Source of the DNA: Chrysochromulina tobinii
Taxonomy: Eukaryota
Direction of reading: 5' to 3'
Assembly: GCA_001275005.1 (NCBI GenBank)
Contig: JWZX01002640.1
Coordinates: 1 to 40,913, forward strand
DNA length: 40,913 bases
Below, one piece after another: positions 1 to 40,913 of the stretch (position 1 is the first letter of the stretch; each line of letters begins with the position of its first letter). The position numbers and the translations under genes are program-made. The notes under the pieces were generated by a model. It searched no databases. It was not told the origin of the DNA and was given only the letters and a program-made list of their open reading frames with translations.

Positions 1-85
1 ACCCTAACCCTAACCCTAACCCTAACCCTAACCCTAACCCTAACCCTAACCCTAACCCTAACCCTAACCCTAACCCTAACCCTAA
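1..85 (-). repeat. Telomeric repeat (CCCTAA)14, i.e. TTAGGG on the minus strand; chromosome end
   Basis: Perfect CCCTAA x14 at 2-85 at the window edge, C-rich strand on +, as expected for a left chromosome end. Confidence 0.97.
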
Positions 86-3000
86 GCGCAACGGCAAAAG
101 CGAGGCCGCCCGCATCGCCCAGCTTGTTGCTGTTAAGGCTCAGCTGCGTCAGCGTCGTGTTCGTCTGAAGCGCAACGGCGAGCGCCTGGCTGCTCTCCGC
201 GCCGAGACTGTTGCCACCCAAGTCGAGCTGCGTCAGAGACCGGTTACGTGTGATAAGGTATGCAATCACGAGCCCGGACGCATCACCCAAGCGCTTCCCC
301 GAAAGCACAATACTCGCCGCGCTGGTGAGCTCCGCGATCGAGAGAACATCGCCGTCCAACGCGATCATGTGAAGAGTCGTGTTCGTCTTGAGCACCTCGA
401 CCAGCGCCTTGCCACTCTCCGTGCCAAGCTGGTTGCCACCCAAGTCGAGCTGCGTCAGAGATCGGTTCCCTGAGATCAAGTGTGCAATCACGAGCCCGGA
501 CGCATCACCCAAGCGCTTCCCCGAAAGCACAATACTCGCCGCGCTGGTGAGCTCCGCGATCGAGAGAACATCGCCGTCCAACGCGATCATGTGAAGGGTC
601 GTGTTCGTCTTGAGCGCCTCGACCACCGCCTTGCCACTCTCCGTGCCAAGCTGGTTGCCACCCAAGTCGAGCTGCGTCAGCGTCGTGTTCGTCTGGAGCG
701 CCACAGCAAGCGCACAGCCACCCGCATCGCCAAGCGTGTTGTGGTTGAGGCTCAGCTGCGTCATCGTCGTGTTCGTCTTGAGCACCTCGACCATCGCCTT
801 GCCACTTTCCGTGCCGAGCTGGTTGCCACCCAAGTCGAGCTGCGTCAGCGTCGTGTTTGTCTGGAGCGCCACAGCGAGCGAACAGCAACCCGCATCACCC
901 AGCTGGTTGCTGCTGAGGCTCAGCTTCGCAAGCGTCGTGTTCGTCTTCAGCATCTCGACCAGAGCCTTGCAGGTACCCGTGCAAAGCCGGTTGCCACCCA
1001 AGTCGAGCTGCGTCAGAGACCGATTCCCTGAGATCAGATGCGCAATCATGAGCCCGGACGCATCACCCAAGCGCTTCCCCGAAAGTACAATACTCGCCGC
1101 GCTGGTGAGCTCCGCGATCGAGATAAAATTGCCTTCCAAAGCGATCATGTGAAGGGTCGTATGCGTCTTGAGCATCTCAACCACCGCCTTACTACTCCCC
1201 GCGTTGAGCCCGATGCCATCCAAGCCGCACTGGTTGAAAACCAAGTTAAGCTTCTTTAGCGTCGTGTTCTTCTTTAGCATCTCAACCACCGCCTTGCCGC
1301 TCTCAGTGCCGAGCTGGTTGCCACCCAAGTCAAGCTGCGTCAGCGTCGTGTTCGTCTGGAGCACCACAGCAAGCCAATAGCCTACTGCATAGCCCAGCTT
1401 GTTGTAGTTGAGGCTCAGCTGCGCAAGCATGGTGTTCGTCTTGAGCACCTCTACCATCGCCTTGCCGCTCTCCGTGCCAAGTTGGTTGCTGCCCAAGTCG
1501 AGCTGTGTCAACGTCATGTTCGTCTGGAGCGCCACAGCGAGCGCACAGCCACCCGCATCGCCCAGCTTGTTGTTGTTCAAGCTCAGCTGCGTCAGCGTTG
1601 TGTTCGTCTGGAGAACTACAGCAAGCAAACATCCAACCGCATCCTCCAACTGGTTCTTGTTGAGGCTCAGCTGCGCAAGCTTTGTGTTCGTTTTGAGCGC
1701 CTCGACCATCGCCTTGCCGCTCTCCGTGCCAAGCTGGTTGTCACCCAAGTCGAGCTGCGTCAGCGTCGTGTTCGTCTGAAGCGCAACGGCGAGCGCCTTG
1801 CCACTTTCCGTGCCGAGCTGGTTGCCACCCAAGTCGAGCTGCGTCAGCGTCGTGTTCGTCTGGAGCGCCACAGCGAGCGCGCAGCCACCCGCATCGCCCA
1901 GATTGTTGCGGATGAGGCTCAGCTGCGTCAGCGTCGTGTTCGTCTGGAGCGCAACGGCGAGCGCCTTGCCGCTCTCCGTGCGAAGCTCGTTGCCACCCAA
2001 GTCGAGCTGCGTCAGCGTCGTGTTTGTCTGGAGCGCCACAGCGAGCGCGCAGCCACCCGCATCGCCCAGATTGTTGTGGTTGAGGCTCAGCTGTGTCAGC
2101 GTCGTGTTCGTCTTGAGCACCTCTTCCATCGCCTTGCCGCTCTCCGTGCCAAGCTGGTTGCCTCCAAAGTCGAGCTGCGTCAACGTCGTGTTCGTCTGGA
2201 GCACCACAGCAAGCCAATAGCCTGCAGCATCGCCCAGATTGTTGTGGTTGAGGCTCAGCTGCGTCAGCGTCGTGTTTGTCTTGAGCATCTCGACCAGAGC
2301 CTTGCAGATACCCGTGCAAAGCCGGTTGCCACCCAAGTCGAGCTGCGTCAGAGACCGGTTCCCTGAGATCAGATGCGCAATCATGAGCCCGGACGCATCA
2401 CCCAAGCGCTTCCCCGAAAGCACGACACTCGCCGAGCTGGTGAGCTCCACGATTGAGAGAACATCGCCGTCCAACGCGATCATATGAAGGGTCGTGTTCG
2501 TCTTGAGCATCTCGACCACCGCCGTGCCGCTCTCCGTGCCAAGCTGGTTGCCACCCAAGTCGAGCTGCGTCAGCGTCGTGTTTGTCTGGAGCGCCACAGC
2601 GAGCGCGCAGCCACCCGCATCGCCAAGCGTGTTGTGGTTGAGGCTCAGCTGCGTCAGCGTCGTGTTCGTCTGGAGCATAACGGCGAGCGCCTTGCCACTT
2701 TCCGTGCCGAGCTGGTTGCCACCCAAGTCGAGCTGCGTCAGCGTCGTGTTCGTCTGGAGCGCCACAGCGAGCGCGCAGCCACCCGCATCGCCAAGCGTGC
2801 TGTATTTGAGGCTCAGCTGCATCAGCGTCGTGTTCGTCTTTAGCATCTCGACCACCGCCTTGCCGCTCTCCGTGCCAAGCTGGTTGCCACCCAAGTCGAG
2901 CTGCGTCAGCGTCGTGTTCGTCTGGAGCGCCACAGCGAGCGCGCAGCCACCCGCATCGCACAGCCTGCTGTTGTTGAGGCTCAGCTGCGTCAGCGTCGTG

Positions 3001-6000
3001 TTCGTCTGAAGCGCAACGGCGAGCGCCTTGCCGCTCTCCGCGCCGAGACTGTTGCCACCCAAGTCGAGCTGCGTCAGAGACCGGTTACGGGAGATCTCTA
3101 TGGCGAGCGTGCGGCCGTCTGCATCGCCCAACTGGTTGCTTCTGAGGCTCAGCTGCGCAAGGGCCGTGTTCGTCTTGAGCACCTCGACCAGCGCCTTGCA
3201 GGTCTCCGTGCTGAGATTGTTGCCACCCAAGTCGAGCTGCGTCAGAGACCGGTTACGTGAGATCAGATGCGCAATCACGAGCCCGAACGCATCACCCAAG
3301 CGCTTCTCCGAAAGCACAATACTCGCCGCGCTGGTGAGCTCCACGATTGAGAGAACAACGCCGCCGCACGCGATCGTGTGAAAACTCGAGTTCATCTTGA
3401 GCAACTTAAGCACAGCCTTGTCCCTCTCCGTGCTGAGATTGTTGCCACCCAAGTCAAGATGCCTCAGCGTGGTGTTTGTCTGGAGCGCCACAGCGAGCGC
3501 GCAGCCACCCGAATCGCCCAGATTGTTGTGGTTGAGGCTCAGCTGCGTCAGCGTCGTGTTCGTCTGAAGCGCAACGGCGAGCGCCTTGCCGCTCTCCGCG
3601 CCGAGACTGCTGCCACCCAAGTCGAGCTGCGTCAGCGTCGTGTTTGTCTGGAGCGCCACAGCGAGCGCGCAGCCACCCGAATCGCCCAGATTGTTGTGGT
3701 TGAGGCTCAGCTGCGTCAGCGTCGTGTTCGTCTGAAGCGCAACGGCGAGCGCCTTGCCGCTCTCCGCGCCGAGCCGGTTGCCACCCAAGTCGAGCTGCGT
3801 CAGAGACCAGTTACGTGAGATCAAGTGTGCAATCACGAGCCCGGACGCATCACCCAAGCGCTTCTCCGAAAGCACAATACTCGCCGCGCTGGTGAGCTCC
3901 GCGATCGAGAGAACATCGCCGTCCAACGCTACTATGCGAAGGGTCGTGTTCGTCTTGAGCACCTCGACCATCGCCTTGCCGCTCTCCGCGTGGAGCCTGT
4001 TGTCACCCAAGTCGAGCTGCGTCAGCATCGTGTTCGTCTGGAGCGCCACAGCGAGCGCGCAGCCACCCGCATCGCCCAGCCAGTTGCCGTTGAGGCTCAT
4101 CTGCGTCAGAGACCGGTTACTTGTGATCAGGTGCGTGATCACGAGCCCGGACGCATCACCCAAGCGCTTCCTCGAAAGCACAATACTCGCCGCGCTGGTG
4201 AGCTCCGCGATCGAGAGAACATCGCCGTCCAACGCTACTATGCGAAGGGTCGTGTTCGTCTTGAGCGCCTCGACCATCGCCTTGCCGCTCTCCGCGCCGA
4301 GATCGTTGCGACCCAAGTCGAGCTGCGTCAGCGTCGTATTCGTCTTGAGCGCCTCGACCATCTTGACGCTCTCGCCATGAGTCAACTTGTTCTCTCGCAA
4401 GCCGAGCGACGCCAGCCCATGCATCAGCTGCACCACCACAGCGACCATCGTCGGCCGATCTCCCCCAATCAGTTTCTGGCTCAGGTCGAGCTCATCACCC
4501 ACCCCCCCGGCTGTCTGCTTCAGCCCCTTGCCAAAGGCGTCGCCCATCTCGTTGCCGAGCATGACCACGTTGGCCCAAAACGCCGGCCACTGCCAAGGTG
4601 GCGGCGACCCCTCAGGGAGACGGTACTTGCCCGAGCAGATGGCCTGCGCTGCAAAGAACTCCTGGAAGGAGAGGTGCGCCGACTGCATCTGGAGCGGCTC
4701 GACCTGCAGCAGGCTGAGAAGAGGGAGCCTATCCTGCCCCACGCGTTCGCGCACCTCCGCGACTGCCGCCCGCTCCTCATCGCGCAGCGCCTGGACCGCG
4801 CCGTCCAGGGCAGGATGGCTCGCCGCATCTGCTCTCGCCATCTGCGCCCGGCAAGCAGCTTTGTCCAGCCCAGACGATGCGAGCTGCTCGGGCTCCAGCC
4901 GCTCTATTGTGGCGCCGTCCTCCAGCTTGACCCTGTAATGAATGGAATGAGATGTTTTATAGATATCGTCGATAACGCCGCGTTGGCCCTTCCCCTTGCC
5001 GTCCAGCAGCTCCACGTAGTGGCCCTCCTCCGCCCGGCCCTTGAACGTCTGGAAGGGGTACACCACCTTCGCATCCAAGTCGGCGAGCGTCCCCGGCGGC
5101 GCAAAGGCGCCCAGCGCCCCGCGGAGTAGCTGCACGTCGGTGATCACGCGCGCCTGCGCCACGTGCGCCTCGAAGAACACAACTTCCAGCAGCGTGCGCA
5201 CTTCTGCCGTCACGACGCCGCCGCGCGCGAGCATCGCGTCGGATGCGCTCGCGTACAGCTCCACGACCGTCTTCGGCATGCCCAGCCCTTTGCGGATCTC
5301 GAAGACCGACGCGACCATCGAGAGCATCAGCGGGTTGGCCGTGACGCGATGCTGCATCGTCGGCGCAGCAGGGTCCGTGCTCGTTGGCATGCGCTCGACA
5401 AAGGCCATCAGCTGCCTCACGTCCCCCTCATTCCCCAGCCGCTGCAGCAGCGCCTGCTCCTGCTGCGCCTCCGTCAGCGGCGCCAGCTTCAGCAAGCGGA
5501 AGCCGGAAAAGCGCGCCTCGACCACGCCCGCCGGCCGCGAGGTGCAGAGCATCACGTGGCCCTGATGTGCCAGCACCTTGACAACGTGCTGCTCGATCTC
5601 GGCGCGCTTGGCGCCGGCCTCGTCGAGCCCGTCGAGGAGGAGGAGCGCTCGGCGCGCCATCATCGCCTGGCGCAGCATGCGGTACACCTCGGGCCTCTCA
5701 GCGTACGTGAGGCAGAGGTACGCGTCGACCCAGTTCCAGTGCGACGTGAACGCGTCTGGTGCATCGCGCAGCTTCGCCTGGAGCAGCTGCACCTTGATCA
5801 CGATGGGCACCAGCTCGGCACAATCGAGCGCCAGGACCACCACCTGGCTGATGAGCGTCGTTTTGCCCGCTGCGGGGGGCGCGGTGAGCAGCGCGGCTCC
5901 CGGAGCAGTGATCGCCTCGCCAAGGCTTCGTGCAGCGTGTAGCGAGTGCAGCCAATCGCTCAGGCCGCGCACGTCGCGCACGCCCGCCAGATCGGCATCT

Positions 6001-8156
6001 CCCATCACCTCGATGGCCACGCACTGCTGCAGTGCATCCAGCCGATTGCCGGAGAGCGCATCAAAGATCTGCGTGTGCTGCTTGCGCAGCTCCCGCGTCC
6101 ACCACTCGCGCATTGCCTCGTAGGCGGCGTGCGGCAGCTCGCGCGGCGCGTGGTTCCACGGGTGCAGCGTGAGCGTGGCTGGTGGCTCGCCGCTGCCCTC
6201 CAAGAAGGTGAGGCGGTGGCCGAGGCCATCGGCGCCCGTCGAGGCCACGTCGGCATCGCGCCAGCCGCCGGCCGTACACACGGTGAGCAGCTGGCCGGCG
6301 GCGTAGCGCCGGGCGCCGCTGGCGCCGCTGGCGCGCAGCGCCGCAGTGAGCGCGGCCTCGAGCGCGACAGGCTGCAGCCTCTCGACCGCCGCGCGCACCG
6401 TGCCGAGCGCGGCTTCGAGCTGCGTAAGATCGCCCTGGCTGAAGAGCGTCGCCGCCGCATTCACGCACGACTGCACGGCGCTGCCCACCTCGCGCACCGC
6501 GTATGCGATGCTTTGGCACCGCGCCGCACGGTCGGCGATCTCGCGCGCCCGCTCGCCGACGGCGCGCAGAGCCGACTCCGACTGCATCCGCCGAGCATCC
6601 TCCTCCAGGCCGCGTGCGGGCTCGACGAGGTCTCGAAGCGCACGCGCATCGCCGACGAACGCGGCGTCCCAGCCGGCTGCGGGCGGCCGCCACGGCAGCA
6701 ACGACTGGCTGCATCGGTCGTAGGCGAGCTCGGCGTCGTCGACGCCCGTGACGGCGGCGGCGACGCGCCCCCCGGTCGCATCGACGACGCCAAAGCGCGG
6801 ACCGCCGCCCGTGCCGCTGCCCTGCCAAGAGAGGAGCAGCAGCGGCTGTCCCTCGGCGAGGCGCAGCGGCGCGGCAGCGGGCGCATCGACCTGCGGCAAC
6901 GGCTCCGCCGGCGCGGCCATCGCGCTGCCGGACGCGAGCGCGAGCACGGATGTCACCACGCCGACAATACGCCCGACGTACTCGCGGTAGAGGGCGGGCA
7001 CCGTCTCCTTGTCGCCCTTGCCGGTGAAGGTGGCGCGCTCGATGCTGGAGACCACCTCGGCGACGCGCGTCTCCAGCTGGCCGATGGGCGCTACGCCCGG
7101 CTCGGTGGGCTGGCCGCTGCGCAGCACGAGCACCTTGGACGGAAGCGCGTCGAGCGCCTCCCTCACGCGCGGAACCACACGCAGCCGCGCGAGCAGCTCA
7201 TAGCTCACAGCGTTTTCAAAGACGCACCAGCCGCGCTCGTCGTACGGGCGCTCGTTGTACAGTGTGTCGACGCCGTCGCACAGCTCGGGCCACGGCCCCG
7301 CGCGCTTGGCGGCGAGCGCCGCCTCGTGGGACGCGAAGCGCACGACGGGAGGGTTGCGCGTAGGCTCGAACGCGACGATGGCGCCAAAGCAGCCAAGCGT
7401 CTCGCGGATGGAATCCTCGCCCGTCGTGGGCTTCAGCCCGAAGAGGCACAACGCACCGTCGAACGCCTCCGGCCGGGGCGGGATCTCGCGCGACTGCAGC
7501 ACGGTGGTGCCAACGGCGGAGGCGTACACGTCGGCCATGACCTTGATCGCGCGCTTGAAGGCGTCGCTCTCGTCGGGCGTGCGCTCGCGGTCGGGCAGGG
7601 TCTGGAAGAGCGAGGCGTAGTCCCAGAAGACGCCCTCGATGTGCAGGTGCTCCTCGAGGGCGGCGAGCATCACGTCCAGGCGCGCGCCGTCCGGGTCGCA
7701 CTCGCCGGGTGACAGCCAGCCGTGGGTGAGCGCGCCCACGCCGCGGTTGCCGCGCCGGAGCAGCGCGACGGCCTCCTCCGCCGAGAGGAAGGGCGACTCA
7801 GCCTTCAGCGCCTCGAGCTCCTGCCTCCGTTTCAGCCGTCTCCCGTCTGGCTGCCGCCGCAGCCGCCGCAGCCGCCGCAGCCACGAGACGCGCAGCAGCT
7901 TGATGTCGCCGGCGCGGAGCGCCTCGGCAAGCCGGTCGTCGAGTCCCGAGAGGACGCGAATCATCTCGGGTGGGCCAATTGCCACGGTCGGCCGCTCAGC
8001 GTCGTCGTCGTCATCGATGTCGTCGAGGTTGGTATCGTCCAAGGCATTGGGCTGCGTGGCGCCAACGGACGGTCCCGATGAAGACGGCCCACGCGGCGTG
8101 GTGGTCATCTCAATCGCGTCAACAATGGAGTTCCCGATCACGACATTCGGGTTCAT
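3..8156 (-). CDS. NLR-like STAND protein (HET-like domain, NACHT NTPase, RI-like LRR array); ~2690 aa before the telomere, no stop codon, runs into telomere as (RV)n
   Basis: Hand translation of the minus frame. In-frame TAG upstream at 8262-8264, first ATG at 8156 (MNPNVVIGNS). HET-like motifs ALTHGW, FWDYASL, YDERGWCVFE, ATFTGKGD. Walker A APPAAGKTT (5856-5882), Walker B LLLLDGLDE (5619-5645), CTSRP, ANPLMLSM, winged-helix HLSFQEFFAA (~4647-4676), then 28-aa LRRs. The ORF track lists no minus-strand ORF in this frame below 8200, consistent with no stop before the sequence edge. Confidence 0.92.
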   Translation of the reverse strand, partial: MNPNVVIGNSIVDAIEMTTTPRGPSSSGPSVGATQPNALDDTNLDDIDDDDDAERPTVAIGPPEMIRVLSGLDDRLAEALRAGDIKLLRVSWLRRLRRLRRQPDGRRLKRRQELEALKAESPFLSAEEAVALLRRGNRGVGALTHGWLSPGECDPDGARLDVMLAALEEHLHIEGVFWDYASLFQTLPDRERTPDESDAFKRAIKVMADVYASAVGTTVLQSREIPPRPEAFDGALCLFGLKPTTGEDSIRETLGCFGAIVAFEPTRNPPVVRFASHEAALAAKRAGPWPELCDGVDTLYNERPYDERGWCVFENAVSYELLARLRVVPRVREALDALPSKVLVLRSGQPTEPGVAPIGQLETRVAEVVSSIERATFTGKGDKETVPALYREYVGRIVGVVTSVLALASGSAMAAPAEPLPQVDAPAAAPLRLAEGQPLLLLSWQGSGTGGGPRFGVVDATGGRVAAAVTGVDDAELAYDRCSQSLLPWRPPAAGWDAAFVGDARALRDLVEPARGLEEDARRMQSESALRAVGERAREIADRAARCQSIAYAVREVGSAVQSCVNAAATLFSQGDLTQLEAALGTVRAAVERLQPVALEAALTAALRASGASGARRYAAGQLLTVCTAGGWRDADVASTGADGLGHRLTFLEGSGEPPATLTLHPWNHAPRELPHAAYEAMREWWTRELRKQHTQIFDALSGNRLDALQQCVAIEVMGDADLAGVRDVRGLSDWLHSLHAARSLGEAITAPGAALLTAPPAAGKTTLISQVVVLALDCAELVPIVIKVQLLQAKLRDAPDAFTSHWNWVDAYLCLTYAERPEVYRMLRQAMMARRALLLLDGLDEAGAKRAEIEQHVVKVLAHQGHVMLCTSRPAGVVEARFSGFRLLKLAPLTEAQQEQALLQRLGNEGDVRQLMAFVERMPTSTDPAAPTMQHRVTANPLMLSMVASVFEIRKGLGMPKTVVELYASASDAMLARGGVVTAEVRTLLEVVFFEAHVAQARVITDVQLLRGALGAFAPPGTLADLDAKVVYPFQTFKGRAEEGHYVELLDGKGKGQRGVIDDIYKTSHSIHYRVKLEDGATIERLEPEQLASSGLDKAACRAQMARADAASHPALDGAVQALRDEERAAVAEVRERVGQDRLPLLSLLQVEPLQMQSAHLSFQEFFAAQAICSGKYRLPEGSPPPWQWPAFWANVVMLGNEMGDAFGKGLKQTAGGVGDELDLSQKLIGGDRPTMVAVVVQLMHGLASLGLRENKLTHGESVKMVEALKTNTTLTQLDLGRNDLGAESGKAMVEALKTNTTLRIVALDGDVLSIAELTSAASIVLSRKRLGDASGLVITHLITSNRSLTQMSLNGNWLGDAGGCALAVALQTNTMLTQLDLGDNRLHAESGKAMVEVLKTNTTLRIVALDGDVLSIAELTSAASIVLSEKRLGDASGLVIAHLISRNWSLTQLDLGGNRLGAESGKALAVALQTNTTLTQLSLNHNNLGDSGGCALAVALQTNTTLTQLDLGGSSLGAESGKALAVALQTNTTLTQLSLNHNNLGDSGGCALAVALQTNTTLRHLDLGGNNLSTERDKAVLKLLKMNSSFHTIACGGVVLSIVELTSAASIVLSEKRLGDAFGLVIAHLISRNRSLTQLDLGGNNLSTETCKALVEVLKTNTALAQLSLRSNQLGDADGRTLAIEISRNRSLTQLDLGGNSLGAESGKALAVALQTNTTLTQLSLNNSRLCDAGGCALAVALQTNTTLTQLDLGGNQLGTESGKAVVEMLKTNTTLMQLSLKYSTLGDAGGCALAVALQTNTTLTQLDLGGNQLGTESGKALAVMLQTNTTLTQLSLNHNTLGDAGGCALAVALQTNTTLTQLDLGGNQLGTESGTAVVEMLKTNTTLHMIALDGDVLSIVELTSSASVVLSGKRLGDASGLMIAHLISGNRSLTQLDLGGNRLCTGICKALVEMLKTNTTLTQLSLNHNNLGDAAGYWLAVVLQTNTTLTQLDFGGNQLGTESGKAMEEVLKTNTTLTQLSLNHNNLGDAGGCALAVALQTNTTLTQLDLGGNELRTESGKALAVALQTNTTLTQLSLIRNNLGDAGGCALAVALQTNTTLTQLDLGGNQLGTESGKALAVALQTNTTLTQLDLGDNQLGTESGKAMVEALKTNTKLAQLSLNKNQLEDAVGCLLAVVLQTNTTLTQLSLNNNKLGDAGGCALAVALQTNMTLTQLDLGSNQLGTESGKAMVEVLKTNTMLAQLSLNYNKLGYAVGYWLAVVLQTNTTLTQLDLGGNQLGTESGKAVVEMLKKNTTLKKLNLVFNQCGLDGIGLNAGSSKAVVEMLKTHTTLHMIALEGNFISIAELTSAASIVLSGKRLGDASGLMIAHLISGNRSLTQLDLGGNRLCTGTCKALVEMLKTNTTLAKLSLSSNQLGDAGCCSLAVALQTNTTLTQLDLGGNQLGTESGKAMVEVLKTNTTMTQLSLNHNTLGDAGGCALAVALQTNTTLTQLDLGGNQLGTESGKAVVEALKTNTTLHMIALDGDVLSIAELTSAASIVLSGKRLGDASGLVIAHLISGNRSLTQLDLGGNQLGTESGKALVEVLKTNTTLHMIALDGDVLSIAELTSAASIVLSGKRLGDASGLVIAYLITRNRSLTQLDLGGNSLGAESSQALAVALQTNTTLTQLSLNSNKLGDAGGLAFAVALRVRVRVRVRVRVRVRVRVRVRVRVRVR
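86..4428 (-). repeat. Coding tandem array of ~47 LRR modules (~40 of 84 bp/28 aa and 7 of 138 bp/46 aa)
   Basis: Type A TNTTLTQLDLGGNQLGTESGKAxVExLK, type B TNTTLTQLSLxxNxLGDAGGCALAVALQ, type C TNTTLHMIALDGDVLSIAELTSAASIVLSGKRLGDASGLVIAHLISG followed by NRSL. Units are near-identical at DNA level. Confidence 0.93.
4640..5900 (-). other. NACHT NTPase plus helical/winged-helix domains of the NLR-like ORF
   Basis: ALLTAPPAAGKTTL, ALLLLDGLDEAG, MLCTSRP, LAPLTEAQQ, ANPLMLSMVA, HLSFQEFFAA in canonical NACHT order. Confidence 0.88.
6985..7935 (-). other. HET-like N-terminal effector domain of the NLR-like ORF
   Basis: Motif order ALTHGW...DPDGARL...VFWDYASLFQ...VMADVYAS...YDERGWCVFE parallels the HET domain motifs ALSYxW, WIDxxCIxQ, MxxIY, RxWxxQE. 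Confidence 0.6.
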
Positions 8157-8373
8157 CGACACGGCCGCCGCCCCCCTGGAAATCCTGTCCACTTGCCTGC
8201 TGCTCGTCGTGATATGAAACCACAATCGCGCACACACTCCGGACCTCAAGCACGAGGACCTCTATCGCAATGGACGGAGGTATGGCCGACACAGCCTGTT
8301 ACAGAACAAGTTTCCCAAACTATTTTAGCGTACTGTAGTTGATCTCTACACTATAGCCGACGGTCGCGACACG
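8157..8373. promoter_or_regulatory. Probable bidirectional promoter between the NLR-like gene and its divergent neighbour
   Basis: 217 bp, less GC-rich gap between two divergent ATGs (8156 minus, 8374 plus). Confidence 0.5.
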
Positions 8374-9678
8374 ATGGGATGTGCCCCGTCCAAGGCCACG
8401 GCAGCTCCCGCAGAGACCGATGATGATGATGAAAGGGATGTCAAGAGGCTCGCTGCGCAGTATGCAGAACGGCTCGAGCAGGAGAGTCAACGTATGGCAC
8501 TCGAAGCAGCAGCAGCAGCAGCAAAAAAAGCACCGAAGTCCAAGTCCCAGCCCAATTCTAAGGCTCATACGGCCTCGTCGGGAGTATCGGATGCCTCAAC
8601 GCTCAAGGTCGCCCGGTGGCTCTCCGATGGAACTGGCCACGTTGCTACGGTCGAAACCGCTAGTCAACGAGAACCGTTGGCCAACGCATTGGCGCCACCC
8701 TCAGCCCCAGCGCGAGTAACAGATCTGACGACGCTCATGGTCGCGCGTTGGCTTACCGAAGGAGCTGAGCCCGTAGCTCCTGTCCATGCCGCTCCAGCCA
8801 CTTCCACGACCGCCGCCGGGCGCGTCTCAGATGCCCCAACTCTCAAGCTCGCGCATCAGCTCTCTTCAGGAGCTGAAGCTACTGCTGAAGGAGCTGAACC
8901 GGCTCCAGCCGCCGCCGCGCCAGCCCCAGCCGCGGCGCTCCCACTGACGAGGCGCTTGGACACTGATGAGTCGCTCCCACTGACGAGGCGCTTGGACGCG
9001 GAGAACCACACCTTGATGAGCCAGTTGGTGGAGACTTGGGGGGCGGAGGATGCGAAGCTAGAGCGCCTGGCCGCGGAGCGGGCGGCGGCGGAGAAGGCGG
9101 AGACAGAGCGCTTGGCCGCGGAGATTGGGTCGTTTGAGGTAGGCGCTGGCGCGCTTCCCGACGGCGACGAGAGCGACGAGGAAATCTACACCGAGATGAG
9201 AAACAGAAGCCAGATCATCTCGCTACAGCAGCAGCCAGTGAACATGCTTAGCCTCCAGGAGTACATGCGATACGGCGAGAGCGCAATGCTGCGCGACGCG
9301 CGGGCACGGCGCGACATGGCCCTCGCCGAGGAACGCGTCGTCAACATCGAGTACTATCGGGATCTGCTCAATAGCAGCCCTTCGAAAGGCAGCCCGTCTC
9401 CCGTGCACGACTCTGGTGCACCCTCAACAGGCTCGACTCTGCCGACCGATCGGTCGCCATCTCAGCTGCTCAAGAGCACGCCAAGCAAGATCACGCCGCC
9501 TGCGCTTAAAATCCCCACGGTGTTGCCATCACCTGGTACGGAAGGCATGGATTTCATCGATACGGCTCGCCTCCTCTTCAAGAAAGCCAACGAGGCCATC
9601 AGCAGCGTGATGGTGGGCGATTATCTACAAGCTAGCACACCGGCGGCGGACACTGTCGAGAAACGGCTCGTTTTCTAA
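8374..9678 (+). CDS. Hypothetical protein, 434 aa, with predicted N-myristoylation/palmitoylation signal and internal repeats
   Basis: Begins MGCAPSK (MGCxxS acylation consensus). Three VxDxxTLxxAxxLxxG repeats, a duplicated LPLTRRLD and an S/P/T-rich tail. Confidence 0.75.
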   Translation: MGCAPSKATAAPAETDDDDERDVKRLAAQYAERLEQESQRMALEAAAAAAKKAPKSKSQPNSKAHTASSGVSDASTLKVARWLSDGTGHVATVETASQREPLANALAPPSAPARVTDLTTLMVARWLTEGAEPVAPVHAAPATSTTAAGRVSDAPTLKLAHQLSSGAEATAEGAEPAPAAAAPAPAAALPLTRRLDTDESLPLTRRLDAENHTLMSQLVETWGAEDAKLERLAAERAAAEKAETERLAAEIGSFEVGAGALPDGDESDEEIYTEMRNRSQIISLQQQPVNMLSLQEYMRYGESAMLRDARARRDMALAEERVVNIEYYRDLLNSSPSKGSPSPVHDSGAPSTGSTLPTDRSPSQLLKSTPSKITPPALKIPTVLPSPGTEGMDFIDTARLLFKKANEAISSVMVGDYLQASTPAADTVEKRLVF

Positions 9679-10086: not shown

Positions 10087-10845
10087 TCACACCGCTGCGG
10101 CGATGCGGCCGGTATCGCCACCCGGGATGGAGCCGGTCATGCCGCTCGCAATGGGCGCGCCCGCGTGGGCGGCGCTGACGTCGTGCGCGCCGGCGCCGCT
10201 GCTGCCGCTGCTGCCACCACCTAGCGCGGCGGCGGCGAACGACTGCACCGACGGGTTGCTGGCAGCGCCGAGGCCGGCCCCGAGGACCTCAGGGCTGTCC
10301 GAGATGACCTGCTTCATCAGGCCCGCCCAGCTCACCTCGTTGTCGTCAGCCGACGTCTTCAGTCCGCTCATCTCGTAAGACTGTTTCGTCTTGTCCATGT
10401 TAATGAACTCATTGTCCGTCACGGCGCCGCAGCGTTTGCACGCGAAGAGGTGGATGACGCCCACACAGGACACGATGAGCGTGCAAATCGAGGAGAGTGA
10501 CCACCCGGACTCGGCAAAGAAGGAGAGGAAGCCAATGAAGCAGTAGAAGCCGCCCTTGCCACGCGGCGACGACAGCAGGTGGAAGTAGACGTCGATACGC
10601 CTTTGGAAGGTGCGGATGATGGGCAACGTCTTGAGTTCCGTGAGCACGATCAGTATGCCGAAGCCAACGTTGTACAATGAGATGATGATCGCGAGTGGGT
10701 TGATGGTGAAGACGCCGACGATGCCGCCGAGCATGAGCAGGAGGCCGGAGATGGCCGAGGCCCAGCGTAGCGTTCGCGGCGGGTCCTTGGACATCACCGC
10801 ATACGACGTCCTGCAGCAGCTGATCGCGTTTCTGATATGCTCCAT
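10087..10845 (-). CDS. TVP15: COPI-associated / Golgi membrane protein TVP15 family
   Basis: ATG at 10845 (MEHIRNAI). Four hydrophobic segments and family-like motifs YNVGFGILIVLTE and YFHLLSSPRGKGGFYCFIG. Confidence 0.75.
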   Translation of the reverse strand: MEHIRNAISCCRTSYAVMSKDPPRTLRWASAISGLLLMLGGIVGVFTINPLAIIISLYNVGFGILIVLTELKTLPIIRTFQRRIDVYFHLLSSPRGKGGFYCFIGFLSFFAESGWSLSSICTLIVSCVGVIHLFACKRCGAVTDNEFINMDKTKQSYEMSGLKTSADDNEVSWAGLMKQVISDSPEVLGAGLGAASNPSVQSFAAAALGGGSSGSSGAGAHDVSAAHAGAPIASGMTGSIPGGDTGRIAAAV

Positions 10846-10981
10846 GGTGCGGCGAGGCGAAGCGACTCCGCGCCACTTCACGTTCACTCACACGTTGACC
10901 GCAAGGTTGGACATAATAGTGCTCCCTCCGAGCAAACGCCTCCCTCCATTTCAATCGCGCCGTTCCGGGCTTCCGTTTGCA

Positions 10982-13900
10982 ATGTCCTCCTTGGACCGTC
11001 GCGTGGCGCACCTGCTCGACGGCTCGGGTCTGACGGCGGCGCAGCGCGAGGAGCAACTCGTCGCCGCCGTCGCGCTGCTCCGCGCGGCCGAGGCGGGCGG
11101 CAGCGCCAAGCCCGAGACGGCCGCGCCCGAAAACTTCCTGCTGTGCTCGGAGGTGGCGCTCACGCTCGACGTGGTGGGCAAGCCGGCGGTGCTCGAGCTC
11201 GCACGCAGCTGCGTCGAACACTTTCTCCGCTCGCGCCCGCCGCGCACGCAGTTCCTCGTGCGCGCCTATTTCGCGCTCGGCTCCGTGCAGGCTGCCGAGG
11301 CGGCCCCGTGCAAGCTCGAGGAGCTTGCGGCACGGCTGCTCGCGGCGGCAAAGGTGGCTAACAAGGGGCTCACGCTCGCGGCCGAGCTGGGCCGCGCGCA
11401 CCGCTTCCTCGTGTACAACGCCTCGGTGCACCTCTACCGGATCCTGCGGCCGCTGCTCGAATACAACGGCGAGACGGCGGCAGCGACGACGGCGCTGCTC
11501 GAGGGCGTGCTCAAGGCCCTCGCGGCAGCAGAGGAGCCGGACGCGGCGTGGCGTCTGCAGCTCTCGATGCAGCTCGCGCGCTGCATGGAGCGCTGCGGCC
11601 GGCGCAAGGACGCGGGCGCCCTGCTGGGCACGTGCGCGCCGCTCGCCGCCGAGGCCAAGAAGCGCGAGGACGAGGAGTCCAAGCTGGGCGGCGAGTCCAA
11701 GCTGGGCGGCACCAAGCGGACGGGGCCGCCGCTGCAGGAGCTGCTGCTGCAGCTGCAGGCGCACATGGTCGGCGACGACGCGGCCGCGCTCAAGAAGCTG
11801 CGCGACGAGTGCCAGCCCGACCCACGCAAGCGCTGCCTCGTACTCACGCAGCTCCTATGCGACGGCGGCCCGGCGGGTCCACCCGACCCGAAGGCACCTC
11901 CCTTTTCGGCCGCGCAGGAGGTGGCGGACGCGGTGGCGGCGCTCGACCCGGAGCTCGGGGCGGCGCTCGCGACCAAGGGCGGCGAGGCCGCCATCAAGCG
12001 CGCCGTCGCCAACGTGCCGCTCAACTCGTGCCCGCACGACGACGTGCTCGTGGCGCTCGCCTCGCAGGCAGCACGCCTCGGGCTCCTCGCGATCGCGGGC
12101 CACTGCGCGCAGCGGTGCGCGGCGGCGCCCCGGCTGTCGAGCCGCGTGCGCTCGGCGTACATCAAGGCGGTGTGCCTCGTGGGCTCGCTCGACGAGGGCG
12201 ACGGGCCCAAGCAGGCGGGCGTGTACACCAAGCTGATGGTGAACACACGCATCGACGCGCTCAAAGTGCTCGAGGAGGCGCTCACCTCGGCGCGTCGCGT
12301 TGGCGAGCCCGAGCTGATCCAGGATGGATGCGTGCTCATCTGGAACGTGGCGCTCCCGCTCCTCCAGCCCTCGCTCCTCGGGCACGCCGAGCGCGCGCTC
12401 TACCTCGCCGCCGCCGCTCTCGAGGCCATCGGCTCGCCGCTCGCGCAGCTGCGCGCCTCAGTGCACCTCGAGCTCGCGCGGCTCGACGCGTCTCGCGAGC
12501 TTGTGGCCAAGGCGGCGGCGCACGTGGGGAAGGCCGAGGGGCTCAACATCCCCGCCGACGCGGGCACCGGCGCTGCCGTCAACCCGATCTCGCGCCCGCT
12601 GAGAATGCTCGGCACCCGTCTCGCTCTCAAGCTCGATGTGTTCCGAGAGCCCGCCACTGCATCTGAGCGCGCGATGGTCAAGCTCGAGCAGGCGCGCACG
12701 GACAAGCGCGCGCCCCTCAAGCGCACACTGCTCACCCAGGTTCTCGAGGAGCTGCAGGCCGCCGACCCCGACCCCGAGGACGACGCCAAGGGCGGCGACG
12801 ACGAGAATGCCAAGCGCGAGCGCGCTGTACTGTGGGAAGAGCTCATGAAGGCGGGCTGGGCGCTGCGCATGTCCGCCGTCGCGCGCGCCGCCGCCGCTGC
12901 GCTGCTCGCGCCGCAGTGGACGCCCGCCACCGACGGCCCGCTCGTGAGCGCGCAGGCCGAGGCGTACTTCACGCTGGGCGAGACGTATATCTCCGAATTG
13001 GGCGAGATGCAGGAGCAGGCGGCCAAGGAGGCGGCCGCGCTCGAGGCGGCGCGCGCCACCGCGGCCGAGCGCGGCCTGCCGCCGCCGGTCGCGCCGCCCG
13101 GCAAGGCGGAGGCAGCCGAGGCTGCGCGCGAGGCCGTGCGCCAGAAGGCTCTCGACTCGTTCAAGCGCGGCATTGGGGTGGGCCTCTCTGTCAAGGACGA
13201 CCTGCTCGTGCACAACGGGTGCATCTACGTACTCAACTACAACCGCTCGCTGCTGCGCGCGGCGCAGTACGAGCCGCTCGTGCCCACGCTGCGCGCGTGC
13301 TTCAGCGCTCTACAGCAGTGCGATGCCAAGTCGATGAAGGCCGACGGGCAGCAGCTGCGCATCGCTCTCGCCACCTGCTGCTCGTTCGCCCTTGCGCTCG
13401 AGGACGCTGCAACCGAGCCGCCCGCGTCTGGCAGCGGCCCACGCGTCGCTCTCAAGGACGCGGACGCGGCCGCGTGGCTCAAGGAGGCGCTCGACGTGTG
13501 CAAGTGGGGCTGCGAGCTGTGCGCGGGCCAAGCCCAGCTCAAGGCGCAGCTGACCGCGTGCTGGGCTCGGCTGCAGGGCTACGGCGGCGCCAAGGCTGCG
13601 CAGTTGAATGTGGGCACGGAGCCCGAGGCGACTGCGCTCGCGCTCCTCGAGTTGCTCGCCTGCGGCATCCTCGACACGGGCCCCGCGGCGGACAAGGCCG
13701 CCGCGCTCGGCAAGGCGCGCGAGCTCCTCACCACGAGTAGCGGTTCGCCCAAGCCCGAGCCTGAGCTGTGGGTGCGTGTGGCGCAGCAGGCGCTCGCCCT
13801 CGGCGACCTCGCCTCCGTCGTCAAGGCATGCGAGGCGGCGCTCCAGCCGCTCAGCGCCAAGCGCGAGGCCAATGCGACCATCCTGAAGGAGGAGTGGAAG

Positions 13901-16900
13901 TGGTTTGCGCTCGCCGAGACGGTGCACGCCGAGGCGATCGCTCGGCTGTTGCGCGACGGGCAGGACGTGGCTCTGCAGCAGCAGCTGCACGCGAACGCGC
14001 TCACACACCTCGCCGAGGGCATGGCGCACGCGGCGCGCGCGTCCGAGTCGCCGCTGATCCTCTCGACTGCCCAGCGCACGTGGCGGCACGTGGCGCCCTT
14101 TGTGGGCGGCGGCAACGCGCCCGACGCGCGGCTGCGTGCCCCCCTTGGCGTGGTCCTCGCGGAGCTCGAGAAGCTCGACGCGCGCTACCAGCCGCAGGTG
14201 ACGGAGCTGCGGGTGAGGTTGTACGAGGTACTGCTCTCGGTGCTCGCGCAGGCACGCGCGTGGGGCGAGGGCCTGCAGCTCCTCTCGGCCGCCTTCCGCA
14301 CGCTGCCCGAGGCGAGCCAGGAGCCTCTCTGGCAGGAGAAGGTCGCCTTCATGTGCAAGGGTGGCGGCAAGGGGCTCGCGGGCGAGATGCACAAGCTCAA
14401 GGACTTTGCACCGTCGGTGCAGGCGGCCGTGTGGGCGGTGCTCGGCAAGCTCGCTCCCTCGACGGGCGAGCAGCTCAACGGCCAGCTCAAGGCGGTCGAC
14501 TGCCTCTCGGCTGAGCCGCTGCTCAAGGTGCGCTACCTCATCGGTCTCGCGCAGTGGCTCTATGTGCACGCCTTCCCTCTGCGCGACTCGGAGGATCAGC
14601 TGATGGCGGCCATCGATGTGCTCATGGACTATGAGGAAGTGCCTGATGGCGGCGACGACGACGACGATGCTCTCTCGTCGGTTGGTGGCTCCGAGTACGG
14701 CGGCTCGAGGAGCGGGAGCATTGCGCGCTCTGGCACCGCCGGCGGTGCGTCGACCCGCGGAGGCGGCTCGACCGCTGGCGGCTCGTCCGCTGGCGGCTCG
14801 TCCGCTGGCGGCAAGGGCGGCTCGGGCGGAGCTGAGGCATCCCTCTCGGTGCCCCAGTACGAGCAGCTCGCGCGCATTTACCTCATGAAGGCGATGATGG
14901 CGCCGACGATGAGCGCACGTGTCGAGTCGATTGTGGTGTCTCTCCATTACCTCACGCGGGTGTGGGGTGTCGCGATCACCGCGTGCAATGCCGCCGAGGC
15001 CGCCAAGCCGGGCGCCGACCCGAGCGCACCGCCCCCCTTTTCGATGCCGACCGAACAGCACGAGTGGGCCCTGTGGCAACCGAGCGAGGCGCTCCTCAAC
15101 GCCATGGTCGCCCTCGGCGGCTCCGATCGCGTCCTGAGCACTGCCGGTCTGCCGGAGGCGTCGCTCACCGCCGCCTACCTGTTCTACGCCGTCGAGCAGC
15201 TCCTCGAGAATGGCATGACGCTGCACGCGCTGCTTCCCCTCGGCCTGCTACGCGTCATCGCCAAGCTCGTCCTCAAGTCACCTGCGGGCGAGCGCTCGGC
15301 ATCGCTCAAAACCGCCCACTGCCTGCACCAGCTCGGCCTGCCTGAGGCGGCGGCCGCCATGCGCGCCTCCATCGACTGCCTGCGCCCCACTGTCGACATG
15401 AAGCGCAAGAACGCCATCCGACTCAAACAGCTCACGCACGCCGACGCTGCCGTCGTCGCCGCCGCCACAGCGCCCAAGGTCGCCGATGTGGCGGCGCCCG
15501 CAACCGACGGCGCGCCCCTCGGCGCCACCCTCAGCTCCACCAGCCGCGGCAGCACCCGTGGCGCCGCCGCGGCGGCGCCGCCGCCGCCCGCGGCGCGCAT
15601 CAAGTCGAGCGTGCGTCCGAACGAGGCGGAGTGGGTAGAGCTCGCCTCCTTGCTACTCGAGGAGGGCGAGTGGGGCGCCGCTCGCGAGTGGCTGCTCGAG
15701 GCGGCGCCTCTTCTACGAGCCCTCGGTGAGAGGGAGCACGAGGCGCGCTGCCACCGGCTCCTTGCACAGATCGCGAGCCTGCACGGACAGCCAGCCGATG
15801 CGCTCAAGACGGCGCTCGAAGCGCTCAGCCTGTGCCCTCTCGAGCTACCCGAGTGGTGCGAGGCTGTTGGCTGCCTCGCCACCTATCGTGCGGCCGTTGA
15901 CGAGCAAGCCGCGATCGCTACCCTCAATGCCGCGGTCAGCCTCGCCGCCCAGCTGGCTGCCGAGCACCCCTCGTCCGCCTCGGACGCGCGTCTCGCGATC
16001 GCCGCCCTCCAGACACGCCTCGGCGACGTGCACGGCCGCCTCGCACGTGCGGGCTCCGCCGATGATGCAGCGCTCGCGACGGCGGCCCTCGAGGCGGCGA
16101 CGGCCACGTACGCCGAGCTCGGCGCGCCGCGTTGGGCGGCCAAGGTCCTCCTGGCGCGTGCGGCATTGCTCGAGGCGATGCCCGAGCCGCCGGCCGAGCC
16201 CTCTCTCGTCCTCGAGGCGAAGGCGAATCGGCTCGAGATGCTCGGTCAACTCCTCGAGGCCGCCCACGCGCAGGCGGAGCGCTCCCTCTTCATCGCGGCC
16301 CCGCGCGCTATGCCGGCCGACCTCTCGCTGCCGGTGAGCCGCGAGCTCTCCAAGATCAAGGTGGAGCTCTCAGCCCTCTCGCTTCGGCACGCGGAGCTCC
16401 AGGCGGAGGTGCTCGCCGCCAACCCACCCGCGGGTCCCCTCTTCCCGCGCGTCGAGGGCGGGGACTCGGACATCATCGCGGCTTATGTGCAGCCGCCGGT
16501 GGTCGTGCCGCCGCCCCCTCACATGGAGCAGGAGGGGCGGGCTCTGCTGCACGCCGCGTCCGCCATCGCACTCGCGGGCGGTGGCGCCACGCGCGCACGC
16601 GCTCTCCTCGCCTCCGGCGAAGCTCTGTACGCCAAGGCAGCGGCGCTCGGCTGGGGCAAGTCTGCCGACCGGTGGGCGGCACCCCAGCCGCCACCCGCGG
16701 CCGAGCGACGTGAGGGCGTTCTCGCCGAGGTGCTGAGCGCGGCGCCGGCCACCGAGGCGCCGGGGCCCGAGCCGGGTACGGCTGAGGCAGGCGCGGGGCA
16801 AGCCGCGCTGCTCGAGGCAGTCGAGCTCGCTCTCGCCCACGCCGACCTACCAACTGCCGAGCGCGCCGCGCGTGGGCTCGCCAAGGCGATTGGCCTGAGC

Positions 16901-19282: not shown

Positions 19283-19406
19283 TCACCTCGACCAAGGCTT
19301 GCGTGGGCTTGCGCCAGGCGCCGCACGCGAGTGGTTTGCCGTCGAGAAGGTGGGGGGCGATGTGCCGTGGGCGACCGGCACTGGTGTGGCTGACGGTGCG
19401 CGCTGC

Positions 19407-19459
<53 letters not shown>

Positions 19460-40880: not shown

Positions 40881-40913
<33 letters not shown>
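40881..40913. repeat. Terminal poly-C homopolymer (33 nt), probably a contig-end feature or artefact
   Basis: Uninterrupted C run to the end of the window. Confidence 0.8.

What the first reader, a model, noticed from the sequence alone, without database searches (positions are those of the whole stretch)
1..250. Immune-receptor-like ORF has no stop codon: its LRR array is capped directly by the telomere and reads in frame as (Arg-Val)n
Seen: the minus strand reads ...GGC CTC GCT TTT GCC GTT GCG CTT|AGG GTT AGG GTT..., i.e. GLAFAVAL-RVRVRV. Sister repeats continue GCG CTT CAG ACG (ALQT), so the telomere replaces the array mid-repeat. The TT at 84-85 is shared by LRR and TTAGGG. There is no subtelomeric spacer, C-terminal cap, stop codon or 3'UTR. 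The junction avoids the TAG-containing telomere frame. Established: short microhomology to the repeat is typical of telomerase-mediated de novo telomere addition, and UUAGGG RNA can encode VR or GL dipeptide repeats. Inference: either a one-off break healed by telomerase, or an undescribed system in which NLR genes point into chromosome ends and breakage, healing and end-recombination reset the number and identity of LRRs. Stop-requiring gene finders miss such genes, as the supplied ORF track did.
Basis: partly seen in the sequence, partly recalled or inferred. Interest (0 to 1): 0.92.

Follow-up and report, generated by a model that had tools for sequence, protein, structure and literature searches.

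The report
Telomere-capped broken algal NLR-like gene
In a Chrysochromulina alga, an immune-receptor-like gene runs with no stop codon straight into telomere repeats, and two assemblies show the same join; it is likely a one-off chromosome break repaired with a new telomere, a known kind of event, with an untested hint that a sister gene was capped the same way.

Summary
Observation confirmed. A NACHT-LRR ORF (ATG 8156, 2,691 codons to the junction) reads without a stop into 14 perfect TTAGGG repeats as (Arg-Val)n. A separate 55-kb contig (L130) has the identical junction, so misassembly is unlikely. The organism is a Chrysochromulina and the gene belongs to a large family.

(1) The open frame is chance: 654 of 1,075 equally good 2-nt seeds would also give one. 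(2) The last repeat has the signature of terminal repeats in paralogs, so the break probably removed a ~200-aa C-terminal domain rather than cutting mid-array. (3) A gene model of this ORF is in public databases.

A targeted metagenome scan found no second junction (partial sensitivity). Of 49 relatives, 34 keep a cap or a C-terminal extension. Best reading: telomere healing of a break in a dispensable multigene-family member, as in Plasmodium var genes, probably leaving a nonstop, dead allele.

One untested lead: a paralog ends exactly at 'LDLG', the array's commonest strong telomere seed, where a telomere would itself supply TAG. Transcription was not shown.

The parts
1..85 (-). (TTAGGG)14 perfect telomere-type tract, G-rich strand pointing to the contig end; reads as (Arg-Val)n in the ORF frame
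   Evidence: same tract ends contig L130
84..85 (-). TT shared by the Leu codon CTT and the first repeat (2-nt seed)
86..158 (-). Last, incomplete LRR unit (25 aa), of the G-L-A type that in paralogs precedes a Cys-rich C-terminal domain
86..4415 (-). LRR array: 47 segments of mostly 28 and 46 aa (53 segments in L130), 83-89% mean nucleotide identity within each repeat type
   Evidence: (LRR_6 E 8e-122)
3561..3635 (-). Site where L130 carries 687 extra in-frame bases; the window is probably collapsed here
   Evidence: the window's longest exact repeat (134 bp) lies here; a variant contig of run X1 matches L130's extra part with 0 mismatches and the window with 4
4914..5018 (-). Small inserted KOW/SH3-like module; paralogs carry larger insertions (e.g. 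DUSP) in this region
   Evidence: E 0.15-0.22, weak; DUSP E 4e-16 in P0029
5436..5867 (-). NACHT NTPase domain
   Evidence: E 2.7e-4, 21.2 bits, below the 26.7 cut-off; homologs P0037 and P0065 pass the cut-off; Walker A, Walker B and downstream motifs visible (motif names recalled)
6900..7982 (-). N-terminal alpha/beta domain of a haptophyte family with an inserted RRM fold at about 7254-7481
   Evidence: pLDDT 90; RRM Z about 10, rmsd 2.1-2.6, about 70 residues; nearest clusters haptophyte, score under 0.8
3..8156 (-). Whole ORF from the likely ATG; single open frame, 2,691 codons to the junction
   Evidence: paralog P0031 starts at the same MNPNVVIG
10087..18757 (.). Context: single-copy conserved neighbours (COPI-associated protein gene on -, CFAP46 on +) 10-19 kb from the telomere
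   Evidence: 3.6- and 7.2-kb contigs at base depth with 0 differences in runs X1, X3

Best explanation
An NLR-like NACHT-LRR gene of Chrysochromulina is joined in frame and without a stop to telomere repeats, likely because the chromosome broke at or near the end of the LRR array and telomerase likely added a new telomere on a short seed, which would have removed the gene's C-terminal domain, stop codon and everything distal. Shown: the junction, the frame, its reproduction in a second assembly, and the multigene family. Inferred: that the tract is a true chromosome end; that telomerase made it; that the lost part was the ~200-aa Cys-rich domain seen in P0010, P0124 and P0141; and that the allele is tolerated because many paralogs exist. 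If transcribed, the mRNA would be a nonstop message, which would probably be removed by nonstop decay and ribosome quality control (recalled knowledge), so the allele is likely null or nearly so. The Arg-Val frame is a by-product.
For: Identical junction and contig end in L130. Perfect repeats (14 and 18 copies) against at most 6 in the intron-type arrays of L131; 1 telomere hexamer in the other 40.8 kb of the window against 80 in 2.6 kb of L131. Haptophyte telomerase makes TTAGGG (PMC3622300, passages). Conserved single-copy genes lie within 10-19 kb, with no subtelomeric repeat block. Terminal-unit signature: in 29 relatives, 70 of 70 G-C units are followed by another LRR, and 3 of 3 G-L/M-A units precede the Cys-rich domain. 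The family is large (at least 35 clusters at 77-93% identity over the NACHT region) and mostly complete: 26 capped and 8 extended of 49. The frame is at chance level. Precedent: 4 of 28 P. falciparum 3D7 ends have telomere repeats inside a truncated var coding region (PMC5550746, passages).
Against: The seed is only 2 nt, against the 3-6 bp quoted for yeast (PMC5550746); the array offers 57 seeds of 4 nt or more that were not used. The ORF is intact over 2,920 codons, so the break is recent or the gene is still constrained. Both assemblies may come from one strain, and both could stop at an internal tract longer than their reads; interstitial TTAGGG is pervasive in another haptophyte (PMC13518057, passages). 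9 of 49 relatives also end shortly after an LRR without a cap, and their DNA could not be seen. The terminal-unit argument rests on 3 proteins.
Confidence: 0.68

Rival explanations
1. Recurrent system: members of this NLR-like family sit at chromosome ends pointing outwards, and breakage with telomere healing repeatedly trims their LRR arrays or swappable C-terminal domains; in the commonest outcome the telomere itself supplies a TAG stop and a shorter, translatable receptor results.
For: 46 of 57 seeds of 4 nt or more in the array would give an immediate stop, 22 of them at LDLG. Four proteins (P0029, P0030, P0033 and P0127 = Ctob_015332, not flagged partial) end exactly at LTQLDLG, where P0006 and P0154 go on into a Cys-rich domain. 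C-terminal modules and LRR numbers vary widely in the family. One repeat type is hypervariable at two exposed positions (pN 0.354, pS 0.022; 15 non-independent units). Subtelomeres favour NLR turnover in bean (PMC6102362, abstract).
Against: The scan of the metagenome collection for an LRR anchor followed by (TTAGGG)3 gave 2 hits: this same junction and one unrelated gene. None of 349 other proteins has an RV or GL tract. 34 of 49 relatives have a cap or extension. The LDLG ending could be an ordinary stop; its DNA was not seen.
Confidence: 0.12
2. The tract is internal: an interstitial telomeric insertion, or the start of an intron built of TTAGGG repeats (AGG|GTTAGG as donor), at which both assemblies stopped; the gene continues beyond it.
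For: L131 shows introns beginning AG|GTTAGGG and ending CCTAACCAG in another alga-like gene. Interstitial TTAGGG is frequent in Calcidiscus and is reported for Phaeocystis reads (PMC13518057; PMC3622300). Tract lengths of 85 and 113 bp are what short reads would leave either way.
Against: This genome region has no such intron style: 0 CCTAACCAG sites and 1 hexamer in 40.8 kb, long single-exon ORFs, and about one intron per gene reported for C. tobin (PMC4580454, passages). The tract is perfect, whereas the L131 arrays degenerate within 6 copies. The repeat register starts within the Leu codon, not after a CAG exon end.
Confidence: 0.12
3. The end is real but was made by telomere capture (break-induced replication or end joining that copied a telomere from another chromosome) and not by telomerase.
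For: Short 2-nt seed, with stronger seeds unused. Homologous recombination also rebuilds ends in P. falciparum (PMC5550746).
Against: No foreign spacer and no variant repeats at the junction.
Confidence: 0.05
4. Assembly artefact: a chimeric join of an LRR repeat to telomere reads.
For: The array is demonstrably hard to assemble; the window probably lost 687 bp at a repeat.
Against: A 2-nt overlap cannot join a k-mer graph (general knowledge).
Confidence: 0.03

Closest known systems
Telomere healing inside var and other genes of cultured Plasmodium falciparum (Calhoun et al. 2017, PMC5550746; passages and section 8 read)
   Same: Telomere repeats fused directly into the coding region of a member of a large variable multigene family, with no subtelomeric repeats between; treated as creating a pseudogene.
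   Different: Here a haptophyte NLR-like gene whose 3' end points to the telomere with the frame left open; 2-nt seed; one event, not nine; no read-level proof of terminal position.
Fungal NLRs with high internal repeat conservation (HET-E / HNWD family; Dyrka et al. 2014, PMC4986451; passages read)
   Same: Tripartite N-terminal domain + NACHT + highly conserved repeats, variable repeat number, modular domains, hypervariable exposed repeat positions.
   Different: Repeats here are LRRs rather than WD, TPR or ANK. The N-terminal domain has an inserted RRM and gave no HET match. No immune function has been tested. The word 'telomer' does not occur in that paper's main text.
TERRA-derived VR and GL dipeptide proteins (Al-Turki and Griffith 2023, PMC9992779; abstract and outline read)
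   Same: UUAGGG RNA encodes (VR)n in this frame.
   Different: There, non-ATG translation of telomeric RNA in mammals; here a potential ATG-initiated fusion to a 2,700-2,900-aa protein, with no evidence of translation.
Subtelomeric NLR clusters of common bean (PMC6102362; abstract read)
   Same: NLR-type genes near chromosome ends with rapid turnover.
   Different: Those are clusters within satellite DNA; here one gene abuts the telomere with conserved single-copy genes behind it.

Membership tests
De novo telomere addition (chromosome healing) | Telomere repeats joined directly to non-telomeric DNA without subtelomeric spacer | tested here: met
De novo telomere addition (chromosome healing) | Repeat of the lineage's telomerase type, G-rich strand running towards the end | tested here: met
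   TTAGGG on the outward strand; haptophyte telomerase makes TTAGGG, shown for Pavlova, not Chrysochromulina (PMC3622300)
De novo telomere addition (chromosome healing) | Short seed homologous to the telomerase template at the junction | tested here: inconclusive
   2 nt at minimum; the true seed could be longer, because the pre-break sequence is unknown
De novo telomere addition (chromosome healing) | Tract is at a physical chromosome end | not testable with these tools
   two contigs end in it; needs long reads or BAL31
De novo telomere addition (chromosome healing) | An unbroken allele or ancestor exists | tested here: inconclusive
   paralogs with complete ends exist; no unbroken allele of this locus was seen
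NLR (NACHT-LRR STAND protein) | Central NACHT domain with Walker A and B | tested here: met
   Pfam NACHT E 2.7e-4, below the cut-off in the window's protein but above it in homologs P0037 and P0065; motifs visible
NLR (NACHT-LRR STAND protein) | C-terminal LRR array | tested here: met
   LRR_6 E 8e-122; 47 segments
NLR (NACHT-LRR STAND protein) | N-terminal signalling or effector domain of a known class (TIR, HET, CARD, CC and the like) | tested here: inconclusive
   confident model with an RRM insert; the flanking domain gave no Pfam or fold match; a HET-like motif resemblance is recalled only
NLR (NACHT-LRR STAND protein) | Immune sensing function | not testable with these tools
   only indirect: hypervariable exposed positions
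Telomere-repeat introns / interstitial telomeric sequences of haptophytes | Frequent, degenerate TTAGGG/CCCTAA arrays in the surrounding genome | tested here: not met
   1 hexamer in 40.8 kb, perfect tract; L131 has 80 in 2.6 kb
Telomere-repeat introns / interstitial telomeric sequences of haptophytes | Unique DNA on the far side of the tract | not testable with these tools
   both contigs end in the tract
Proposed recurrent LRR-telomere diversification system | Several independent LRR-telomere junctions in the family | tested here: inconclusive
   no second junction among the 2 hits; the pattern misses junctions more than 80 bp from the anchor, including the LDLG candidate (111 bp)

The most novel reading that the evidence does not exclude
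In Chrysochromulina, telomere addition repeatedly edits the 3' ends of NLR-like genes. The LRR unit carries a built-in GGGT seed at LDLG where a new telomere supplies an in-frame TAG, so healing yields shortened but properly terminated receptors (candidate: Ctob_015332 and its relatives), while off-seed healing, as here, gives a receptor with an open (Arg-Val)n tail. Telomerase would then be a source of immune-receptor variants, and of stop codons.
Probability: 0.12. Interest if true: 0.78.

Novelty: new member of a known kind. Interest (0 to 1): 0.32.

Why it matters
As a single healed break it is a tidy example of a known repair event in a new lineage. It also gives a natural locus for testing whether a nonstop mRNA running into telomere repeats is made and translated into an Arg-Val tail. 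It points to a large, modular NACHT-LRR family in Chrysochromulina that my paper searches did not find described. If the LDLG lead held, telomerase would be completing genes by supplying stop codons and diversifying immune-like receptors, which would be new.

Tried and rejected
No whole genome is held for the window, and L130's record is not searchable by handle, so telomere-bearing ends could not be tabulated.

Read laying (contigs only): in 4 of 4 runs no contig ran over position 86. Telomere-bearing contigs may be filtered as human-like, so this says nothing either way. RNA runs X11 and X14 cover parts of the gene, including pieces with 0 differences (7299-7541 at depth 3.8; 1354-1722 at 4.5), but neighbouring genes are covered at similar depth (2-7) and DNA may be present, so transcription is not shown. 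The X14 bin 86-236 had no cover, which is also uninformative.

Viral collection: the LRR 21-mer, NACHT peptides and the LDLG-telomere motif gave 0 hits; a telomere-only scan gave 129 loci, none related to the gene. Prokaryote genomes: 120 loci shown of about 660 estimated 15-mer hits, none related.

Protein searches with the RV-tailed end found no other tailed protein; this is weak, since the window's own database entry lacks the tail.

HET/TIR identity of the N-terminal domain: no Pfam hit at E up to 10, no Foldseek hit at E 0.001, best Z 2.9. PDB sequence search of the NACHT region gave 0 hits. PMC12258605 had 0 hits for telomere terms.

Rejected: selection for the RV frame (chance level); misassembled junction; a real LRR-number polymorphism between the window and L130 as evidence for the system (collapse is more likely, though a true deletion allele is not excluded).

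Full report
OBSERVATION. Window 1-85 is 14.2 perfect copies of CCCTAA, the only such site in 40,913 bases. On the minus strand one frame is open from 8261 to the edge. From the likely ATG at 8156 it encodes an N-terminal domain, a NACHT domain (aa 799-942 of P0001, E 2.7e-4), an LRR array (E 8e-122) of 47 segments and then RVRV.... The TT at 84-85 is shared with the repeat. The core observation is right.

ORGANISM AND FAMILY. A search with the NACHT region gave 176 hits (120 listed). At least 35 clusters are 77-93% identical, among them a C. tobinii protein (86%) and a C. parva model, so the window is from a Chrysochromulina. Public runs X1 and X3 hold the same genotype (3.6- and 7.2-kb neighbouring contigs with 0 differences) and many diverged copies of the gene. 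The family is modular. P0029 carries a DUSP insertion, P0031 ends in a PH domain, P0006 ends in Hint and Fic domains, and several end in Cys-rich tails. In the window's protein the N-terminal domain models well (pLDDT 90) and holds an RRM insert (Z about 10); the rest of it matched nothing, and its likeness to HET motifs is from memory only. Repeats of one type are 83-89% identical, and one type is hypervariable at two exposed positions (pN 0.354 against pS 0.022; 15 units, not independent, few synonymous sites). This is the pattern of fungal NLRs with high internal repeat conservation (PMC4986451, passages). 'NLR-like' is justified by architecture; function is untested.

IS THE JUNCTION REAL? 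It returned 2 loci. L130 is a 55,446-bp contig with the same locus and the identical junction, ending in 18 perfect repeats. It differs from the window by 2 substitutions and a 687-bp in-frame insertion in the array, and the 3,477 bases before the junction are identical. The window's longest exact repeat (134 bp) lies at the discrepancy, and a variant contig of run X1 matches L130's extra part exactly (0 mismatches against 4 for the window). The window is therefore probably collapsed, and the gene has about 53 segments and 2,920 codons. The two assemblies may be of one strain, so they confirm the sequence and not its spread.

IS IT A CHROMOSOME END? The second hit, L131, is an unrelated gene whose introns are built of degenerate TTAGGG/CCCTAA arrays, and interstitial TTAGGG is pervasive in Calcidiscus (PMC13518057, passages). 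This is the serious rival. Against it: the window has 1 telomere hexamer in the other 40.8 kb (L131 has 80 in 2.6 kb); the tract is perfect for 14-18 copies (L131 at most 6); orientation is outward; and C. tobin averages one intron per gene (PMC4580454, passages). Haptophyte telomerase makes TTAGGG (PMC3622300, passages). A true end is likely, not shown.

WHAT WAS LOST? The last unit is the most diverged of its type (14 of 73 bases from its nearest sister among the 10 units compared, against 0-11 for the others). Among 29 relatives with this LRR type, 70 of 70 units with G-C after LGDxx are followed by another LRR, whereas 3 of 3 units with G-L/M-A are the last before an SGR..WLDLS Cys-rich domain of about 200 aa (P0010, P0124, P0141). 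The window's last unit reads G-L-A. The break therefore probably fell at the natural end of the array and removed a C-terminal domain, rather than cutting an arbitrary internal repeat. This is inference from 3 proteins.

FRAME. Placing a telomere at every possible seed in the L130 array gives, for 2-nt seeds, 417 RV, 237 GL and 421 stop outcomes. An open frame is the more likely result, so nothing needs explaining. The strong seeds behave differently: 46 of 57 seeds of 4 nt or more give an immediate stop, 22 of them at LDLG.

ONE-OFF OR SYSTEM? Of 49 relatives (picked from the 213 proteins then held, by NACHT identity of 75% or more or by LRR type; these are clusters, partly the same gene from different assemblies), 26 have a capping motif, 8 a longer non-LRR tail, 9 end soon after an LRR without a cap and 6 do not reach the LRRs. 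None of 349 other proteins has an RV or GL tract; this is weak, since the database model of the window's own gene (P0002, NCBI and MetaClust) stops at GLAFA. The scan found no second junction, but it cannot see junctions more than 80 bases from an anchor, short tracts, or other LRR types if my guess at their codons was wrong. One lead remains. P0029, P0030, P0033 and P0127 (Ctob_015332, not flagged partial) end exactly at LTQLDLG, the commonest strong seed, where P0006 and P0154 continue into a Cys-rich domain. A telomere there would itself supply TAG. That end lies 111 bases from the last anchor, outside my scan, and its DNA could not be fetched. An ordinary stop is equally possible.

EXPRESSION. 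Not shown; see Tried and rejected. There is no AATAAA in the array, though the haptophyte signal is not known to me.

MECHANISM. Most likely (0.68): a break near the end of the array, resection, telomerase extension on a short seed, and loss of the distal DNA. C. tobin is reported as probably haploid (PMC4580454), so the lost segment would have to be dispensable. The intact frame suggests a recent event. A transcript would be nonstop and probably degraded (recalled knowledge).

COMPARISON. Calhoun et al. (PMC5550746, passages and section 8) report 5 healed ends among 28 in P. falciparum 3D7, 4 of them within var coding regions. VR translation from telomeric RNA is described in mammals (PMC9992779, abstract and outline). 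Earlier notes of this scan list the same pattern in Giardia, a chytrid, Naegleria and a rotifer (unchecked). Ten paper searches (listings only, except the papers named) showed nothing on this locus, on Chrysochromulina telomeres or on haptophyte NACHT-LRR families. The C. tobin genome paper has 0 occurrences of 'telomer' or 'NACHT' in its main text. I did not open any supplements, and the library lacks most subscription journals, so these could bear on that claim.

VERDICT. Real feature, new member of a known kind; interest 0.32. The recurrent-system reading stands at about 0.12 and can be tested by reading one contig.

Noticed in passing
proteins P0029, P0030, P0033, P0127 (Ctob_015332): End exactly at LTQLDLG, the commonest strong telomere seed of the array; a telomere there would supply an in-frame TAG. 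DNA not seen.
   Followed up: partly
window 3561-3635 and L130 5850-6536: L130 has 687 extra in-frame bases in the LRR array; the window is probably collapsed at a 134-bp repeat.
   Followed up: yes
window 7254-7481: RRM fold inserted in the middle of a haptophyte-type N-terminal domain of an NLR-like protein; the host domain has no fold match.
   Followed up: partly
proteins P0029, P0033, P0031, P0006, P0154, P0010, P0141: The family swaps inserted and C-terminal modules (DUSP, KOW/SH3, PH, Hint + Fic, Cys-rich tails), reminiscent of integrated domains in plant NLRs (comparison recalled).
   Followed up: partly
L131 1-2579: Gene of an unidentified eukaryote whose introns are built of degenerate TTAGGG arrays at the 5' side and CCCTAA arrays ending in CCAG at the 3' side.
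   Followed up: partly
proteins P0003, P0026, P0027: Same LRR type, ending mid-repeat at DGDVL followed by 17 unrelated residues; another uncapped ending of unknown cause.
   Followed up: no
window 8329-9678 (+): 449-aa open frame with no Pfam hit, divergent from the NLR-like gene, beginning MGC after its first ATG (possible myristoylation signal, recalled).
   Followed up: no
window 40881-40913: The other end of the window is a run of 33 C, probably an assembly break.
   Followed up: no
window 10589-18757, 19283-25069: Very long single open frames (CFAP46, 2,722 codons; EF-hand protein, 1,928 codons); the region is intron-poor.
   Followed up: no
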